From assembly GCA_000995965.1 (NCBI GenBank), contig LBYD01000001.1:76923-140922 (forward strand): a DNA stretch of 64,000 nucleotides. The letters are read 5' to 3'. Positions within the stretch are counted from its first letter, which is position 1, and every line of letters starts with the position of its first letter. The notes under the pieces are model-generated. The model saw nothing but the letters and a program-made list of their open reading frames with translations, made no database searches and was not told the origin of the DNA. The translations under genes were made by a program, and so were the position numbers. This DNA comes from Candidatus Moranbacteria bacterium GW2011_GWC2_40_12 (GTDB lineage Bacteria > Patescibacteriota > Minisyncoccia > Moranbacterales > UBA11712). Shown piece by piece: positions 55,736 through 59,027 of the stretch.

Positions 55736-56011
55736 CTATTTTACTATTGCCAAAATGTCCTCGTTCTTGACCAAAAGATATTCAGCTTCCCCGATCTTGA
55801 TTTCATTTCCGGAATATTTCGAATAGATCACCTTTTGTCCGGCCTTCACTTTGATTTTTTTATCCATTCCGACGGCGATAACAACACCTTCCTGCGGCTT
55901 TTCTTCACTTGTGTCGGGAAGGACGATGCCGGAAGCGGTTTTCGAGTTTGATTTCGCGGGTTCAATCAGGACGTTCTCGCCTAGAGGTTCAATATTGGGT
56001 TTTTTTGCCAT
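55736..56011 (-). CDS. groES: Co-chaperonin GroES (10 kDa)
   Basis: MAKKPNIEPLGENVLIEP ... GIVLPDTSEEKPQEGVVIAVG. Confidence 0.9.
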   Translation of the reverse strand: MAKKPNIEPLGENVLIEPAKSNSKTASGIVLPDTSEEKPQEGVVIAVGMDKKIKVKAGQKVIYSKYSGNEIKIGEAEYLLVKNEDILAIVK

Positions 56012-56051
56012 GGCTTTGAAAAATTATGATTAGCTGTTTTGGAAAAATTAT

Positions 56052-56303
56052 TTAAACCATTCTTTTTTTCGTGAATTCTTCAATTTTCGCGTCGGGCTGG
56101 ATACCAACTGTTTTTTTTCTCTCAATAATGAATATATATATTATTTCAAGGATTCCGAGGGTGTTTAGGAGCAAAAGTGCTATAAACCAAATCATTTCGC
56201 CTTGTCTGGCCGATTTCCACAGTGCAATTCCTTTCCAGACAAGGGTCCAGATGATGAGCGGAATCAGAATCAAATAATTGTTGAGCAGCGATGTTAGATC
56301 CAC
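56052..56303 (-). CDS. Small two-TM membrane protein (DUF5652-like)
   Basis: 83 aa, two hydrophobic helices, WKGIALWKSARQGE loop. Confidence 0.5.
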   Translation of the reverse strand: MDLTSLLNNYLILIPLIIWTLVWKGIALWKSARQGEMIWFIALLLLNTLGILEIIYIFIIERKKTVGIQPDAKIEEFTKKRMV

Positions 56304-56367
56304 AGAAAAAAATTAAACACGAGGGTTATATCTATTGCACCCCATTAGAGTACTTTTTGGATTCACT

Positions 56368-56625
56368 TTAGGCTTCTTTGACTTTAAAAACAGTGGCTCC
56401 TTCTTTTGTCGGACTTGGCACCTTGATCGCAATCTCTTCGCCCTTTTTTCCTTTGCTGACGGGCTCATGGTTGAGCTGGATCGAATCAGCTTTGAGCTCA
56501 AATTCATTGTCTCCTTTCACGAATTTGAGCGGATCCCCCGCCTTGACGACTTTCGACAGTTTCACGACAGCTACCATCGCCTTGTCAAAATAATGAACCA
56601 CTTTTCCGATTTCTTGATCGGCCAT
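56368..56625 (-). CDS. Hypothetical small protein (85 aa)
   Basis: Protein-like composition; no recognisable motif. Confidence 0.45.
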   Translation of the reverse strand: MADQEIGKVVHYFDKAMVAVVKLSKVVKAGDPLKFVKGDNEFELKADSIQLNHEPVSKGKKGEEIAIKVPSPTKEGATVFKVKEA

Positions 56626-56682
56626 ATTTTTGTGGTTAACGTATTCCTAATACTAGCAAACTTTCATTTTTTTTTCAACCCT

Positions 56683-56710
56683 TGAAAAATTGGGCGAATT
56701 TCAGTAGAAT
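56683..56710 (+). promoter_or_regulatory. Candidate sigma70 promoter (TTGAAA, 16-bp spacer, TAGAAT) about 15 nt upstream of the truncated tRNA-Gln copy
   Basis: cccTTGAAAaattgggcgaatttcagTAGAATatgaagg. Confidence 0.45.
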
Positions 56711-56726
56711 ATGAAGGTTGATATAT

Positions 56727-56772
56727 TCCGGGATCGTCTAATGGTAGGACGCCTGACTCTGGATCAGGTAAT
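56727..56772 (+). pseudogene. 5' fragment of tRNA-Gln(CTG) (acceptor 5' strand, D-arm, anticodon arm and variable loop; positions 1-46) lacking T-arm and acceptor 3' strand
   Basis: Identical over 50 bp (56723..56772) to 57100..57149, the 5' part of the complete tRNA-Gln downstream. Confidence 0.75.
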
Positions 56773-57099
56773 TGGGGTTCGCCCGATCATCCGATCGGGC
56801 GGCCGGTCGTATGACCGGCCGAATCCCTCAAACATGAATGCATTACATTTATATTCTTTCACTAGGAAATAATAGCTTGTATAAAGGCAGGACTGATAAT
56901 ATTAAAAGGAGAGTATCAGAGCATCAGGCCGGGAAAGTGGAAGCAACCAAATATAAACTTCCAGCCAGATTAATTCACTTTGAATGCTACGTTGTAAAGA
57001 GTGATTGTATACGGCGGGAGAAATATTTAAAAACTACTGAAGGCAGAAGATTTTTAAAACAACAGTTGAGAGATTTATTTAAAAAAATTGTTGGTTAAC
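56773..57099 (+). mobile_element. About 330-bp insert between duplicated tRNA-Gln 5' segments: degenerate T-arm-like start (GGGGTTCG...AATCCC), two GC-rich hairpins, GIY-YIG ORF
   Basis: Hairpins CCCGATCatccGATCGGG and CGGCCGGTCgtatGACCGGCCG at 56781..56820; flanked by 50-bp direct repeat. Mobility is an inference. Confidence 0.35.
56838..57098 (+). CDS. YhbQ/UPF0213-like GIY-YIG nuclease superfamily protein (86 aa)
   Basis: YIYILSL..NSLYKGRTDNIKRRVSEHQ aligns with GIY-YIG motifs (GIY, YIG, Arg, Glu, His). Confidence 0.75.
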   Translation: MHYIYILSLGNNSLYKGRTDNIKRRVSEHQAGKVEATKYKLPARLIHFECYVVKSDCIRREKYLKTTEGRRFLKQQLRDLFKKIVG

Positions 57100-57103
57100 A
57101 TAT

Positions 57104-57177
57104 TCCGGGATCGTCTAATGGTAGGACGCCTGACTCTGGATCAGGTAATCTTGGTTCGAATCCAAGTCCCGGAGCCA
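57104..57177 (+). tRNA. tRNA-Gln (anticodon CTG), CCA encoded, U1:A72
   Basis: Manual fold: acceptor TCCGGGA/TCCCGGA, D-arm GTCT-AATGGTA-GGAC, anticodon arm CCTGA-CTCTGGA-TCAGG, T-arm CTTGG-TTCGAAT-CCAAG, discriminator G, CCA. Confidence 0.85.
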
Positions 57178-57270
57178 CATTGTATGTTCAGCGTTTTCCA
57201 CTATGCCATTAAAGAGTGTTTAACCTCAAATAAAAGGTTATTGACTTGTAAAGAAAAATTCTGAAGTAAG

Positions 57271-57293
57271 AAACCCATCAGTTGGGTTTTTTT
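57271..57293 (+). terminator. Rho-independent terminator after tRNA-Gln (AACCCA tcagt TGGGTT + T7)
   Basis: aagaAACCCATCAGTTGGGTTttttttgg. Confidence 0.55.
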
Positions 57294-57354
57294 GGTTCGA
57301 AAATTTGGAATAAGTCCCAAGACTGTAGAACAATATTCTGGTATACTCATATAT

Positions 57355-58170
57355 ATGAAAAAAAACATTCTCATTGTCCTTGTTTTGGTTATTTTCATTG
57401 CTTTTGCATGGTGGCACTTCACTGCCACTGAAGACGAAAGAACTGGCTCGCAAAAAAACAATCAGCCAACGCTTTCCGACTATTCAACCGCGCCTGCCGA
57501 CAATGTCACTGCACCTGCAAAAAAAGTCAGGTGGAACTTTGATGGCGAAGAGTATGCTCCTTCCGGGACGCCCCGGGCATGCCCTGATCCGCTTGAGATC
57601 GAATCGCCCGTTGATGTTTCAAAAGCGTCTTCGATCCTGTATCCGGGCCAATACCGCGGTGATGATTTTAAGGCGCACGGCGGATTTAGGTTTGATGGGT
57701 ATCGGAGCGACGCCATAACCGTCACAGTGCCTCTGGATGCCCGGCTGCAAGACGCGAGCCGGTATATTGAGGATGGGCAGGTTCAATATTTATTTGATTT
57801 TATCCATGACTGCGGCATCATGTACCGATTTGATCATCTGGCAACCCTAACTCCGCGATTTGAGGCGTATGCCCGGCAATTGCCTGAAGCGAAAGTGAAT
57901 GATTCACGAACGACCCTGTTTCCCGATGATGTGTACGTCACGACGGGCGATGTCATCGCAACCAGCGTCAATCGGGAGGGTAATGTATTTGTCGATTTCG
58001 GCGTGTATGATCTGCGCCAAAAAAATGGCATAACCATTGATGAAAAAAATTCGTTGGCGAGACATGGCATCTGTTGGTTTGACCTGCTGCCCGCTTCAGA
58101 CGCGCAGAGAGTAAAATCATTACCTGCCAGCGATGAACGGTCAGGCGCGAAGAGTGAGTATTGCAGGTAA
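57355..58170 (+). CDS. Hypothetical secreted/membrane-anchored protein, GC-rich (about 50% GC)
   Basis: N-terminal TM/signal (MKKNILIVLVLVIFIAFAWW); no family recognised; start at ATG 57355. Confidence 0.5.
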   Translation: MKKNILIVLVLVIFIAFAWWHFTATEDERTGSQKNNQPTLSDYSTAPADNVTAPAKKVRWNFDGEEYAPSGTPRACPDPLEIESPVDVSKASSILYPGQYRGDDFKAHGGFRFDGYRSDAITVTVPLDARLQDASRYIEDGQVQYLFDFIHDCGIMYRFDHLATLTPRFEAYARQLPEAKVNDSRTTLFPDDVYVTTGDVIATSVNREGNVFVDFGVYDLRQKNGITIDEKNSLARHGICWFDLLPASDAQRVKSLPASDERSGAKSEYCR

Positions 58171-58190
58171 ACCACCGTAACATTCGATTT

Positions 58191-59027
58191 ATGAAAAAAA
58201 CAAAACAACCAAAAATCGGTCTGGCTTTGGGTAGCGGAGCGGCGAGGGGTCTCGCCCACATTGGCGTGATAAAAGTCTTGGAAGAGAATAACATTCCAAT
58301 CGACTGCGTTGCCGGCTCCAGTATCGGCGCCGTGATTGGCGGCCTTTGGGCGTCAGGGCTGGGCATAGCAGAAATTGAAAAAATTGTTTTGGATATGACC
58401 AATCGGGATGTGTTCTCTTTGGTCGATCCTCGCATGGGGAAAGGATTTATAAAGGGAGAAAGGATAAAATCTTTCATTGAAAGCAACTTGGTGGCCAAAA
58501 ACTTCGAGGATTGCCGGGTGCCGTTTGCGGCCACCGCGACTGACATAAAAACAGGCGAAATCGTGGTTCTTCGCAGCGGGAATATAGCCGATGCCATTCG
58601 AGCCAGCATTTCCATGCCATTGGTTTTTCAACCGGTGGAAAAGGACGGAAAAACATTGGTTGATGGAGGAGTGGGAGCGCCGGTTCCGGTTGAAATTGTG
58701 CGAAAAATGGGCGCGGATATTGTTATTGCCGTCAATTTAGACAAACACTATGTGGATGATAATTGGCGATCCGGCCTGTTGGACATCGCCCATGATTCGA
58801 TGAATATCATGCGCCATTATTTATCCTTTTATCAATCAAAAGAAGCGGATATCGTCATAAATTTAGATTTGGGATCCAACAAATGGTATGATTTTGTGAA
58901 CGGACAAAATAAAATTCTGGCCGGTGAAAAAATGATGAAAAAAGAAATACCTTCTCTCAAAGAACTTATTCGCTCGAAAAGGAAAAGCAATCTCGGAAAA
59001 TTGTTTGATTTTTTTAAGAATGTTTAA
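58191..59027 (+). CDS. Patatin-like phospholipase
   Basis: Oxyanion GLALGSGAARG, nucleophile elbow AGSSIGA (GxSxG), catalytic Asp in LVDGGV (DGG). Confidence 0.8.
   Translation: MKKTKQPKIGLALGSGAARGLAHIGVIKVLEENNIPIDCVAGSSIGAVIGGLWASGLGIAEIEKIVLDMTNRDVFSLVDPRMGKGFIKGERIKSFIESNLVAKNFEDCRVPFAATATDIKTGEIVVLRSGNIADAIRASISMPLVFQPVEKDGKTLVDGGVGAPVPVEIVRKMGADIVIAVNLDKHYVDDNWRSGLLDIAHDSMNIMRHYLSFYQSKEADIVINLDLGSNKWYDFVNGQNKILAGEKMMKKEIPSLKELIRSKRKSNLGKLFDFFKNV

What the first reader, a model, noticed from the sequence alone, without database searches (positions are those of the whole stretch)
56683..57177. tRNA-Gln locus with 50-bp duplication of the tRNA 5' portion flanking a 330-bp insert encoding a YhbQ-like GIY-YIG nuclease and two GC-rich hairpins
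A promoter (TTGAAA-16-TAGAAT) drives a sequence identical to tRNA-Gln(CTG) positions 1-46 (56727..56772) that then diverges into a degenerate T-arm-like GGGGTTCG...AATCCC segment. That segment is interrupted by two very stable GC-rich hairpins (56781..56820), atypical for this AT-rich genome. An 86-aa GIY-YIG ORF (56838..57098) follows. Then comes an exact repeat of the same 50 bp (57100..57149) continuing into a complete, well-folded tRNA-Gln (57104..57177) and a terminator. No promoter is evident directly before the intact copy, so the functional tRNA is probably processed from a roughly 470-nt precursor that also serves as the nuclease mRNA. The configuration is not a canonical group I tRNA intron, because the insert sits after the variable loop and is too small. 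It looks instead like the footprint of a small nuclease-associated mobile or homing-like element that targets tRNA-Gln and regenerates the tRNA by duplicating its 5' part, or a remnant of such an event. A GC-rich islet follows immediately.
Basis: partly seen in the sequence, partly recalled or inferred. Interest (0 to 1): 0.72.

Follow-up and report, generated by a model that had tools for sequence, protein, structure and literature searches.

The report
Selfish nuclease cassette riding a tRNA gene
The duplicated tRNA-Gln piece, the two GC-rich hairpins and the small nuclease gene form one copy of a widespread, apparently undescribed family of selfish DNA cassettes that live inside bacterial tRNA transcription units and keep an intact tRNA next to them.

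Summary
An exact 50-bp repeat (56723-56772 and 57100-57149) flanks two GC hairpins and an 86-aa GIY-YIG ORF. Only the downstream copy is a complete tRNA-Gln(CTG).

It is not a one-off. In one-genome-per-species assemblies, 356 relatives of the ORF were found. In the 80 loci examined, 64 of 87 ORF copies abut a same-strand tRNA. Most carry the same module: part of that tRNA, broken in a loop at YCG^AA, where a pseudo-symmetric double hairpin sits.

Two mirror layouts exist:
- tRNA 5' part, hairpins, ORF, complete tRNA (as here);
- complete tRNA, ORF, hairpins, tRNA 3' part.

All 62 double hairpins in 547 kb lie within 400 nt of such an ORF. A relative has the same promoter and tRNA-Gln with no insert (an empty site). 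A more distant relative is occupied. The closest sizeable relative carries a foreign-type tRNA-Gln fragment, and this window's odd T stem matches that cassette type.

Best reading: a free-standing homing-type nuclease cassette, expressed from the tRNA promoter, which spreads by break repair. The cleavage step and the origin of the duplication are inferred, not shown. I found no description in the searchable literature.

The parts
56682..56710 (+). Promoter-like site TTGAAA-17-TAGAAT. This is the native tRNA-Gln promoter, and it now also lies upstream of the cassette.
   Evidence: 10 of 12 matches, and the only + strand site in 56300-57500. The same motif (TTGAAA-17-TAAAAT) precedes the uninterrupted tRNA-Gln in the empty-site relative L104.
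56716..56726 (+). Upstream copy of the short tRNA leader (GGTTGATATAT), duplicated in degenerate form at 57093-57103 (GGTTAACATAT).
   Evidence: family D1: the 66-nt repeat at 92% identity includes these 11 nt.
56727..56772 (+). Partial tRNA-Gln copy, positions 1-46. It is identical to the resident tRNA.
   Evidence: exact repeat 56723-56772 = 57100-57149.
56773..56781 (+). T-stem 5' strand plus the first half of the T loop (TGGGG TTCG). It is of the cassette type, not the resident type (CTTGG TTCG).
   Evidence: The closest sizeable relative, L135, has CGGGGTTCG at the same place.
56782..56819 (.). Double hairpin: U1 CCCGATC-ATCC-GATCGGG (56782-56799), then CG, then U2 GCCGGTC-GTAT-GACCGGC (56802-56819). 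It is inserted at TTCG^AA of the T loop.
   Evidence: The same layout was found in 51 double units from other loci. It is the only such unit in the 64-kb window.
56820..56827 (+). CG plus AATCCC: the second half of the T loop and the start of the T-stem 3' strand. It pairs with 56774-56781 to close the three-way junction. The tRNA copy ends here.
   Evidence: In 28 class-1 loci the tRNA sequence continues only 0-17 nt (median 5) past the hairpins.
56838..57098 (+). 86-aa GIY-YIG nuclease ORF consisting of the catalytic domain only. Its last codons and its stop codon lie in the duplicated tRNA leader.
   Evidence: Pfam; residues invariant across the family; AlphaFold pLDDT 94.5; nearest solved structures: UPF0213, then Slx1, then I-TevI.
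57104..57177 (+). Complete tRNA-Gln(CTG) with encoded CCA. By analogy, its T loop TTCG^AATCC (57155-57163) is the intact target motif.
57268..57298 (+). Hairpin followed by a T run: the likely terminator of the transcription unit.
   Evidence: inverted repeat I21; -6.5 kcal/mol, z -2.8.

Best explanation
This is one copy of a family of selfish cassettes that live inside bacterial tRNA transcription units. A cassette has two constant parts. One is a catalytic-domain-only GIY-YIG nuclease gene. The other is a tRNA stem-loop whose loop is split at YCG^AA by a pseudo-symmetric 38-bp double hairpin. A partial copy of the host tRNA lies on one side and a complete, functional tRNA on the other.

In this window the native tRNA-Gln promoter probably transcribes the whole unit: partial tRNA, hairpins, ORF and tRNA. 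RNase P would then release the tRNA (inferred).

Proposed mechanism; every step is inferred from anatomy and from known GIY-YIG enzymes:
1. The nuclease cuts tRNA genes in a loop at YCG^AA. In the T loop this is the centre of the palindrome TTCGAA. The cut leaves 2-nt CG overhangs.
2. The break is repaired from a cassette-bearing copy. At an orthologous tRNA gene this is ordinary homing. The left homology arm is the upstream flank plus the partial tRNA. The right arm is the complete tRNA plus the downstream flank.
3. When the neighbouring intact tRNA is itself cut, out-of-register repair can start at the TTCG microhomology next to the hairpins. This copies hairpins, ORF and tRNA 5' part again. 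The result is a tandem array, and a partial copy made of the host's own tRNA.
4. Gene conversion from the adjacent tRNA keeps the partial copy identical to it.
5. Recombination between the two repeats removes the cassette precisely and restores a single tRNA.

Here the partial copy is resident sequence up to position 46. From there on (T stem, hairpins, ORF) it is cassette sequence.
For: **Family and tRNA linkage**
- 356 relatives were found in one-genome-per-species assemblies.
- 4443 clusters at 50% identity match at E<=1e-10.
- In 80 loci, 64 of 87 ORF copies have a same-strand tRNA within 40 nt downstream or 60 nt upstream. A further 14 have one within 450 nt. No opposite-strand tRNA lies within 100 nt.

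**Repeats**
- The tRNA part upstream of the ORF usually starts at tRNA position 1 (sometimes up to 11 nt before it). It ends at about position 36, 55-57 or 69-73, which are the anticodon loop or the T loop.
- The mirror layout shows the same loop junction.

**Hairpins**
- 51 double units share the layout YYCG | CCNNGTC-ATYC-GACNNGG | CG | CCNNGTC-GRAT-GACNNGG | CG AAWCC.
- 14 of 16 stem pairs show changes on both sides.
- All 62 double units in 547 kb lie within 400 nt of an ORF, although only 16% of the bases do.

**Mobility**
- Empty site in L104 and occupied site in L109, at the locus defined by the same 85-aa neighbour gene.
- The window ORF is closer to elements at tRNA-Ser(GCT) (L011, 69%) than to the ORF at the orthologous locus (59.5%).
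- Tandem arrays exist. L020 has 3 units of 394 bp, two of them identical 394/394.
- 4 of 87 ORF copies are decayed.
- Many contigs break at the element.

**The cassette carries tRNA pieces**
- L135 and L034 have a foreign-type tRNA-Gln fragment next to a different resident tRNA-Gln.
- L064 carries the tRNA-Ser(GCT) 3' part of an L030-type cassette next to tRNA-Ser(CGA).
- The window's T stem TGGGG matches the L135 cassette (CGGGG), not the resident CTTGG. The second hairpin differs from that of L135 by 1 nt.

**Protein**
- GIY-YIG profile match, confident fold, and family-invariant Tyr, Arg, His and Glu residues.

**Known enzymology**
- GIY-YIG homing enzymes such as SegB leave 2-nt 3' overhangs, and SegB sits in a tRNA gene cluster (PMC2330249, abstract seen).
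- Mobile endonuclease ORFs that carry and duplicate part of their target gene are known in fungal mitochondria (PMC3630166).
Against: - No cleavage data exist. The cut site is inferred only from where the hairpins sit and from the CG at all three junctions.
- The intact tRNA next to the cassette keeps the presumed target. So do other tRNAs: tRNA-Gly and tRNA-Thr in this window carry TTCGA in their T loops. A nuclease that simply cut TTCGA would have many chromosomal targets, so its specificity or its expression level must be restricted in a way I cannot explain.
- An 86-aa catalytic domain has no evident DNA-binding domain.
- How the cassette first lands next to a new, non-homologous tRNA species is unexplained.
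- The 5 nt after the hairpins match the host's own T-loop variant (ATTCC, AGTCC) in the few informative loci. This needs gene conversion or a more complex joint than simple copying of a cassette.
- The role of the hairpins is unknown: scar, immunity patch, recognition structure or RNA element.
- The hairpin covariation is inflated by ascertainment, because units were found by their palindromy.
- All 20 contigs of this population carry the element, so no within-population polymorphism was seen.
Confidence: 0.7

Rival explanations
1. Cut-and-ligate transposition instead of recombinational homing. The nuclease cuts at the CG on the outer edge of the double hairpin and at the CG in the T loop of the adjacent intact tRNA. 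This releases a fragment with self-complementary CG overhangs (hairpins, ORF, tRNA 5' part). The fragment is ligated into a T loop cut in the same way elsewhere. Excision would restore the donor tRNA precisely.
For: - CG is found at all three junctions of the double hairpin, and the target TTCGAA is palindromic.
- The mobile unit defined this way is exactly the repeat unit of the tandem arrays.
- It explains both mirror architectures with a single rule.
- 20-22-nt single hairpin units are found inserted at other sites of pseudo-tRNAs.
Against: - In this window and in L069 the junction between resident and cassette sequence lies upstream of the T stem, not at the CG. In L034 and L135 the whole partial copy is foreign. 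Both patterns point to recombination within or outside the tRNA rather than ligation at the cut.
- Insertion into a different tRNA species would make a chimeric, probably dead tRNA.
- No ligase or recombinase is encoded.
Confidence: 0.12
2. The module works mainly at the RNA level. The tRNA fragment plus three-way-junction RNA would be a functional partner of the protein (guide, decoy, antitoxin-like regulator or mRNA stabiliser). The arrangement would then be kept for that function rather than being a by-product of mobility.
For: - The closing stem and both hairpins are retained in both architectures, on the same strand as the ORF.
- The fold is much more stable than shuffles.
- Non-Watson-Crick stem pairs are G:T 7 times and A:C 2 times, a weak lean towards pairing on the sense strand.
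- In class 1 the junction lies 12-49 nt upstream of the start codon, where it could affect translation.
Against: - The module is dyad-symmetric at consensus level and folds equally well on both DNA strands. That fits recognition at the DNA level.
- The tRNA-derived 'guide' part is dispensable. It is reduced to 6-8 nt in class 2, truncated in L030, and riddled with extra hairpins in L011, L025 and L048.
- The loops (ATYC / GRAT) are not known stable RNA tetraloops (own knowledge).
- No Rfam family matches.
- The 7-versus-2 count is not significant.
Confidence: 0.1
3. A domesticated host gene. On this view the small nuclease serves the cell, for example in repair or quality control at highly transcribed tRNA genes, and the partial tRNA copy is an old fixed duplication.
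For: - The ORF is intact in 83 of 87 copies and its catalytic residues are conserved across phyla.
- All 20 contigs of this population carry it.
- The nearest solved structures, UPF0213 proteins, are ordinary chromosomal proteins of unknown function.
Against: - The distribution is patchy, and a close relative has an empty site.
- At least 19 different host tRNA species/anticodons are involved, and the ORF tree matches neither tRNA identity nor architecture.
- Tandem arrays and decayed copies exist.
- Foreign tRNA fragments are carried along.
- The repeats are 100% identical, which implies recent events or ongoing conversion.
Confidence: 0.05

Closest known systems
Mobile endonuclease ORFs (mORFs) of fungal mitochondria that carry part of their target gene: Allomyces macrogynus atp6-ORF360; Glomus atp6, atp9, cox2, nad3 (PMC3630166)
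   Same: - A free-standing endonuclease gene, GIY-YIG in some cases, lies next to a gene.
- Part of that gene is duplicated: one copy completes a working gene and the other is left as a pseudo-fragment.
- The carried fragment can be of foreign type.
- The ORF is co-transcribed with the host gene.
- The class-2 layout here (complete tRNA, ORF, 3' fragment) is the same topology.
   Different: - The hosts here are bacterial chromosomes and the targets are tRNA genes, not mitochondrial protein genes.
- The nuclease has a catalytic domain only (about 86 aa).
- Both 5'-duplicating and 3'-duplicating layouts occur.
- A conserved double hairpin always marks the break point.
Phage T4 SegB, a free-standing GIY-YIG homing endonuclease in the tRNA gene cluster (PMC2330249, abstract)
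   Same: A GIY-YIG homing enzyme embedded among tRNA genes. It cuts the tRNA gene region of relatives that lack it, leaving mostly 2-nt 3' overhangs. It spreads together with flanking tRNA sequence.
   Different: - By my own recollection, not checked here, SegB is a larger protein (about 220 aa) with a DNA-binding part.
- The abstract read here mentions neither a partial tRNA duplication nor a hairpin module.
- It is phage-borne, whereas this family is almost absent from viral contigs (3 distant hits).
Double-hairpin elements and GC clusters of fungal mitochondrial DNA (from my own knowledge; the original papers were not in the searchable library)
   Same: Short GC-rich palindromic pairs of hairpins in AT-rich genomes. 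They insert at short specific targets with a 2-bp duplication, and some are found at the borders of mobile endonuclease ORFs.
   Different: There is no evidence of common origin. Here the hairpins are strictly tied to one nuclease family and to tRNA loops (62 of 62). They are not dispersed through the genome.
[quoted passage not shown]
   Same: Same phylum and same class of target: tRNA genes, including the anticodon loop at position 35/36. They too can make tRNA genes hard to annotate.
   Different: - Those are self-splicing ribozymes that interrupt the only gene copy, and most lack endonuclease genes.
- Here there is no ribozyme (no Rfam hit), nothing needs splicing, and an intact tRNA lies alongside.
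- That paper mentions neither GIY-YIG, hairpins nor duplications.
Integrase-borne genomic islands and prophages that integrate into tRNA genes
   Same: They target tRNA genes, often in the anticodon or T loop. The insert is flanked by a direct repeat of part of the tRNA, so a working tRNA is regenerated.
   Different: - Those encode a tyrosine or serine recombinase, are kilobases long, and supply the 3' part of the tRNA.
- Here the insert is about 330 bp, encodes no recombinase, and more often duplicates the 5' part.
UPF0213 / YhbQ-type small GIY-YIG proteins (PDB 1zg2, 1ywl) and the Slx1 nuclease domain
   Same: These are the best sequence and fold matches. Like the protein here, UPF0213 proteins are single-domain proteins. 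Slx1 cuts branched DNA, which is suggestive given the three-way junction formed here.
   Different: Sequence identity is only 26-34%. No NCBIfam model matches. As far as I know, no tRNA or hairpin association has been reported for UPF0213 proteins.

Membership tests
GIY-YIG nuclease superfamily (Pfam PF01541) | Profile match above the curated cut-off | tested here: met
   45.9 bits against a cut-off of 22.6, E 6.9e-12; residues 1-70 match profile positions 1-74 of 78.
GIY-YIG nuclease superfamily (Pfam PF01541) | GIY-YIG fold: a three-stranded sheet with flanking helices | tested here: met
   AlphaFold model with pLDDT 94.5 and element order E-E-H-E-H-H. Foldseek hits, in order: UPF0213 (probability 1.00), Slx1, then the I-TevI catalytic domain.
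GIY-YIG nuclease superfamily (Pfam PF01541) | Conserved catalytic Tyr, Tyr, Arg, (His) and Glu residues | tested here: met
   Y3, Y5, Y15, G17, R25 and H29 are at least 90% conserved and E61 is invariant in 16 homologues. Assigning them to catalytic roles rests on alignment to the family only.
GIY-YIG nuclease superfamily (Pfam PF01541) | Endonuclease activity | not testable with these tools
   Needs purified protein.
Free-standing homing endonuclease gene / mobile ORF element | Endonuclease ORF that lies outside any intron or intein, next to a conserved gene | tested here: met
   No intron model matches. The ORF lies between a partial and a complete tRNA.
Free-standing homing endonuclease gene / mobile ORF element | Presence/absence polymorphism at the same site in related genomes | tested here: met
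   L104 is empty: same promoter and an uninterrupted tRNA-Gln. The window and L109 are occupied. The empty site is in another species, not in the same population.
Free-standing homing endonuclease gene / mobile ORF element | Flanking target-gene sequence travels with the ORF (co-conversion or foreign-type fragments) | tested here: met
   Foreign-type fragments in L135, L034 and L064. The window's T stem is of the cassette type.
Free-standing homing endonuclease gene / mobile ORF element | The enzyme cleaves the ORF-less allele near the insertion site and thereby drives its own transfer | not testable with these tools
   The cut at YCG^AA is inferred only from the junction anatomy.
Group I intron in a tRNA gene | Ribozyme core detectable by a covariance model | tested here: not met
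   No intron family appears among the Rfam matches up to E = 10 in 56000-58000.
Group I intron in a tRNA gene | The insert interrupts the only gene copy and must be spliced out | tested here: not met
   A complete tRNA-Gln follows the insert. The upstream copy lacks its 3' acceptor strand.
Integrase-mediated tRNA-targeting island | A tyrosine or serine recombinase gene inside the element | tested here: not met
   The insert is about 330 bp, and its only ORF with a family match is the GIY-YIG gene.
IS200/IS605 or REP/RAYT-type hairpin elements | An HUH (Y1) transposase associated with the hairpins | tested here: not met
   The associated protein is GIY-YIG in every locus examined.
Mitochondrial double-hairpin elements / GC clusters | Two adjacent GC-rich hairpins inserted at a short specific target with a 2-bp duplication | tested here: met
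   The layout YYCG | U1 | CG | U2 | CG AA was found in 51 units. This is a resemblance in design. Common descent was not tested and is not claimed.

The most novel reading that the evidence does not exclude
A nuclease that is only an 86-aa catalytic domain may get its specificity from DNA shape rather than from a DNA-binding domain. It would recognise tRNA-gene loops or the gap-free three-way junction formed by the T stem plus the double hairpin. The 20-22-nt palindromic units would then be the smallest known self-propagating DNA insertions, copied into each cut site (T loop, anticodon loop, D loop) as a patch that blocks re-cutting. Together they would form a minimal two-part selfish system that turns any tRNA gene into a home while always leaving one working copy.
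Probability: 0.25. Interest if true: 0.88.

Novelty: new variant of a known kind. Interest (0 to 1): 0.76.

Why it matters
- **A large hidden class of selfish DNA.** If the reading is right, tRNA genes of ultra-small (CPR) bacteria and several other phyla host this class. It is currently annotated only as 'GIY-YIG nuclease family protein' or 'hypothetical protein'.
- **Practical effects on annotation.** It explains pseudo-tRNA fragments and contig breaks at tRNA genes. It also explains mis-called ORFs that run through the hairpins.
- **An extension of known biology.** The mitochondrial 'mobile ORF carrying part of its target gene' principle would now apply to bacterial non-coding RNA genes.
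- **An experimental opening.** It offers a very small nuclease and a 38-bp DNA module whose interplay could be tested directly. The questions are shape-directed cutting, patch insertion, and tandem expansion by out-of-register repair.
- **A question about toxicity.** It is unclear how a genome tolerates a nuclease whose likely target motif is present in most of its tRNA genes.

Tried and rejected
- **Group I intron or known RNA family.** The Rfam scan at E<=10 gave only the two tRNA matches and noise.
- **Recombinase-type integration.** There is no such gene.
- **tRNA fragment as an RNA guide for the nuclease.** Rejected because the fragment is dispensable: 6-8 nt in class 2, truncated or filled with extra hairpins elsewhere.
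- **Simple target-site duplication from one long staggered cut.** Rejected because the hairpin end and the ORF end swap sides between the two architectures.
- **Integration of a circular form by a single crossover in the T arm.** Rejected because it predicts a downstream copy lacking the 5' part, which is not what is seen.
- **General co-conversion gradient next to the hairpins.** Not found. Most partial copies are identical to the resident tRNA right up to the CG. The window, L069, L034 and L135 are the informative exceptions.
- **Phage carriage.** Only 3 distant hits (37-38% identity) in viral contigs.
- **NCBIfam.** No model matches.
- **Dispersed copies of the hairpin in the window.** None.
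- **Within-population empty sites.** All 20 contigs that encode the identical protein carry a 100% identical locus.
- **Literature.** Seven full-text searches were run, on GIY-YIG with tRNA genes, hairpins, mobile elements, Patescibacteria/CPR, UPF0213/YhbQ, and fungal double-hairpin elements. None turned up a description of this element.
- **Third 15-nt match (56633-56647).** It is also present at the empty-site locus, so it predates the insertion and is not a footprint of it.
Full report
**1. The observation**

The window comes from a Candidatus Moranbacteria (CPR) genome: the ORF product is identical to a protein of RIFOXYB1_FULL_44_23.

- The sequence shows an exact 50-bp direct repeat, 56723-56772 = 57100-57149. 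It extends to 66 nt at 92% identity.
- ARAGORN finds one tRNA here, tRNA-Gln(CTG) at 57104-57177.
- The Rfam tRNA model scores this copy at 64.6 bits. It scores the upstream copy at 30.9 bits, just over the threshold of 29. That match works only by using part of the first hairpin as the acceptor 3' strand and shortening the T loop. The upstream copy is a fragment.
- Between the repeats lie two GC hairpins (56782-56799 and 56802-56819) and an 86-aa ORF (56838-57098). The ORF matches Pfam GIY-YIG at E 6.9e-12.
- The only + strand promoter-like site is at 56682-56710.
- A hairpin plus T run follows the tRNA at 57268-57298.

**2. Fine anatomy**

The upstream copy equals the resident tRNA through position 46. 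After that it reads TGGGG TTCG | hairpin 1 | CG | hairpin 2 | CG AATCCC. The resident tRNA has CTTGG TTCG AATCC AAG.

The break is therefore in the T loop, between G57 and A58. The T stem on both sides of the hairpins is of a different sequence type. GGGGTTCG and CGAATCCC pair with each other, so the region folds into a three-way junction with no unpaired junction bases. The fold is equally good on either DNA strand, and no shuffle was as stable.

**3. It is a family**

Sixteen homologues were found first. Their loci showed the same picture next to tRNA-Ser genes, including in Lentisphaeria: a repeat of part of the tRNA about 360-400 bp upstream, and similar hairpins.

A scan of one genome per species gave 356 relatives, of which 80 loci were kept. 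Most are Patescibacteria. Others are labelled Lentisphaerae, Victivallales, Kiritimatiellae, Verrucomicrobiota, Cloacimonadota, Gammaproteobacteria and Bdellovibrionales.

Of the 87 ORF copies in these loci:
- 48 have a same-strand tRNA within 40 nt downstream;
- 14 have one within 60 nt upstream;
- 2 have both;
- 14 have one within 450 nt, mostly in tandem arrays;
- none has an opposite-strand tRNA within 100 nt.

The host tRNAs are Ser (four anticodons, 36 cases), Gln, Arg, Asn, Lys, Tyr, Thr, Pro, Gly, Ala, Ile and Leu. A profile search of 1.84 billion cluster representatives found 4443 at E<=1e-10. Viral contigs hold only three distant relatives.

**4. Two mirror architectures**

- **Class 1** (this window): tRNA 5' part, hairpins, a few nt of continuing tRNA, ORF, complete tRNA. 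The repeat mostly starts at tRNA position 1, or up to 11 nt before it. It ends at about 36 (anticodon loop) or at 55-57 / 69-73 (T loop).
- **Class 2**: complete tRNA, ORF, GGTTCG, hairpins, AATCC plus the tRNA 3' part. In six class-2 loci the hairpin block starts exactly 32 nt before the stop codon, which lies in the loop of hairpin 2.
- **Fuller forms** also exist, with a nearly complete second tRNA copy (L021, L030).

Classes and tRNA identities are intermixed on a distance tree of the ORFs. That tree rests on only 84 residues and has low resolution.

**5. The hairpin module**

Fifty-one double units share one layout: YYCG | CCNNGTC-ATYC-GACNNGG | CG | CCNNGTC-GRAT-GACNNGG | CG AAWCC.

- *Targets.* TTCG^AA (T loop) is the commonest. 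Others are CTCG^AA (anticodon loop of tRNA-Ser CGA), TCCG^AA and TTCG^GA (tRNA-Arg).
- *Symmetry.* The loop of the second unit is the reverse-complement type of the first. The whole module is therefore dyad-symmetric about its central CG, like its palindromic target TTCGAA.
- *Covariation.* Stem positions vary freely but stay complementary. 14 of 16 hairpin pairs show changes on both sides, and the covariation score is 0.41 against 0.13 in shuffles. The units were found by their palindromy, which inflates the percentage of paired positions.
- *Closing stem.* This stem was not used for detection. It is 74% paired overall and well paired only over its inner four pairs.
The window has just this one.
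- *Single units.* Extra units of 21-23 nt sit at other sites of the pseudo-tRNA copies, such as the D loop and the anticodon region.

**6. Evidence for mobility**

- *Orthologous locus.* The locus was traced through the neighbouring 85-aa gene. L104 (neighbour 79% identical) has the same promoter and one uninterrupted tRNA-Gln with no hairpins and no ORF. L109 (neighbour 61% identical) has a class-1 element in the T loop of tRNA-Gln, with an ORF only 59.5% identical to this one.
- *Closest relatives sit elsewhere.* The window ORF is closer to elements at tRNA-Ser(GCT): L011 at 69%, and L134 at 74%.
- *Tandem arrays.* L020 has three 394-bp units, two of them identical at 394/394. L076 has two ORF copies about 369 bp apart whose surrounding 369 bp match at 325/369, and L095 has two ORF copies about 310 bp apart.
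- *Decay.* Four of 87 ORF copies are truncated.
- *Assembly breaks.* Many contigs end at the element.

**7. The cassette carries tRNA pieces**

- In L135 (75% identity to the window ORF) the fragment upstream of the ORF is a TCCGGGATCG-type tRNA-Gln(TTG). Its T stem is CGGGG, and its second hairpin (GCCGGTCGGATGACCGGC) is one base different from the window's. The complete tRNA next to it is a different tRNA-Gln type.
- L034 shows the same kind of mismatch.
- L064 carries the tRNA-Ser(GCT) 3' part of an L030-type cassette beside tRNA-Ser(CGA).

The window's TGGGG...CCC T arm is therefore cassette sequence, joined to resident sequence around position 46-48. In most other loci the fragment equals the resident tRNA right up to the CG. 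The 5 nt after the hairpins follow the host's own T-loop variant. I attribute this to gene conversion from the adjacent tRNA or to out-of-register repair, both inferred.

**8. The protein**

The AlphaFold model is confident (pLDDT 94.5) and has the GIY-YIG topology. The best solved relatives are UPF0213 proteins BH0048 and EF2693, then the Slx1 nuclease domain, then the I-TevI catalytic domain. The family-invariant or near-invariant residues include the Tyr, Arg, His and Glu positions expected of the superfamily. There is no additional domain.

**9. Mechanism: what is shown and what is inferred**

*Shown:*
- the architecture;
- its recurrence next to many tRNA species;
- strict co-occurrence of the hairpin module and the ORF;
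- the loop-motif junctions;
- empty and occupied sites;
- tandem arrays;
- carriage of foreign tRNA fragments.

*Inferred:*
- The nuclease cuts tRNA genes at YCG^AA with 2-nt overhangs. SegB-type enzymes do this (PMC2330249).
- The cassette spreads by repair from a cassette-bearing template, as described for mitochondrial mobile ORFs that carry part of their target gene (PMC3630166).
- Cutting of the adjacent intact tRNA, followed by out-of-register repair at the TTCG microhomology, adds units. This also creates fragments made of the host's own tRNA.
- Recombination between the repeats restores an empty site.
- The unit is transcribed from the tRNA promoter.

*Unexplained:*
- how cells tolerate a nuclease whose motif occurs in other tRNA genes, such as tRNA-Gly and tRNA-Thr in this window;
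- how a domain this small finds its target;
- how the first landing next to a non-homologous tRNA happens;
- what the hairpins do.

**10. Comparison and novelty**

The closest known kinds are:
- mitochondrial mobile endonuclease ORFs with partial duplication of the target gene;
- T4 SegB;
- mitochondrial double-hairpin elements and GC clusters (from my own knowledge).

The element is distinct from the group I introns recently described in Patescibacteria tRNA genes. That paper mentions none of the features seen here.

Seven full-text searches found no description of this element. The library does not cover most subscription journals, so prior description cannot be excluded.

I rate it a new variant of a known kind, with high interest.

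Noticed in passing
window 56633-56647: A third partial match: TGGTTAACGTATTCC resembles the ORF end plus tRNA start at 57092-57106 (14 of 15). It lies upstream of the promoter. It is also present at the empty-site locus L104 (tggttaatgtatttt), so it predates the insertion. It is either an older duplication of the tRNA leader or chance.
   Followed up: partly
window 57285-57301: The T run of the terminator is followed directly by GGTTCGAA. GGTTTTTTTGGTTCGAA resembles GGTAATCTTGGTTCGAA of the tRNA T arm at 82%. This may be a relic of a T arm, or chance.
   Followed up: no
window 57400-58700: A GC-rich stretch (0.47-0.53, against 0.36-0.44 around it). It covers a 271-aa ORF with no Pfam match and the start of a patatin-like gene, directly downstream of the tRNA-Gln unit. 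It may have been acquired horizontally.
   Followed up: no
L011 3780-3905; L025, L027, L048, L021 2770-2850: Single hairpin units of 21-23 nt (hairpin plus YAAA, or YTTR plus hairpin) are inserted at further sites of the pseudo-tRNA copies: D loop (YG^AG), anticodon stem-loop and variable region. Up to five occur in one fragment. They are not seen in the functional copies.
   Followed up: partly
L041 1-90: At least three head-to-tail copies of a 25-nt unit (ccccagtcatccgacggggctctgg) precede the usual second hairpin. This is a tandem expansion of hairpin 1.
   Followed up: no
L091 2350-2500: The pseudo-tRNA-Leu next to a divergent family member carries longer palindromic inserts of 35 and 68 nt with a different sequence (CCATATACTAGAGCAGAGCTCAGTACATGG...). 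This suggests a second type of hairpin module.
   Followed up: no
P0003, P0008, P0011; class-2 loci L018, L032, L043, L055: Gene callers extend the ORF through the hairpins. In class 1 this gives N-terminal extensions such as ...HPVIRLGGESND.... In class 2 it gives a conserved C-terminal tail, GSPxHxxGRPxE, that ends at a stop codon in the loop of hairpin 2. Whether the class-2 tail is functional is unknown.
   Followed up: partly
L073 3069-3320, L093 2980-3213, L074 32-283: More distant GIY-YIG paralogues (37-41% identity to the window ORF) also lie next to same-strand tRNA genes. The link to tRNA genes may therefore extend beyond the subfamily studied here.
   Followed up: no
L017, L029, L035, L061, L083 and others: Many assembled contigs end within a few hundred bases of the ORF. 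The repeated tRNA parts or multiple cassette copies appear to break metagenome assemblies at these loci.
   Followed up: no
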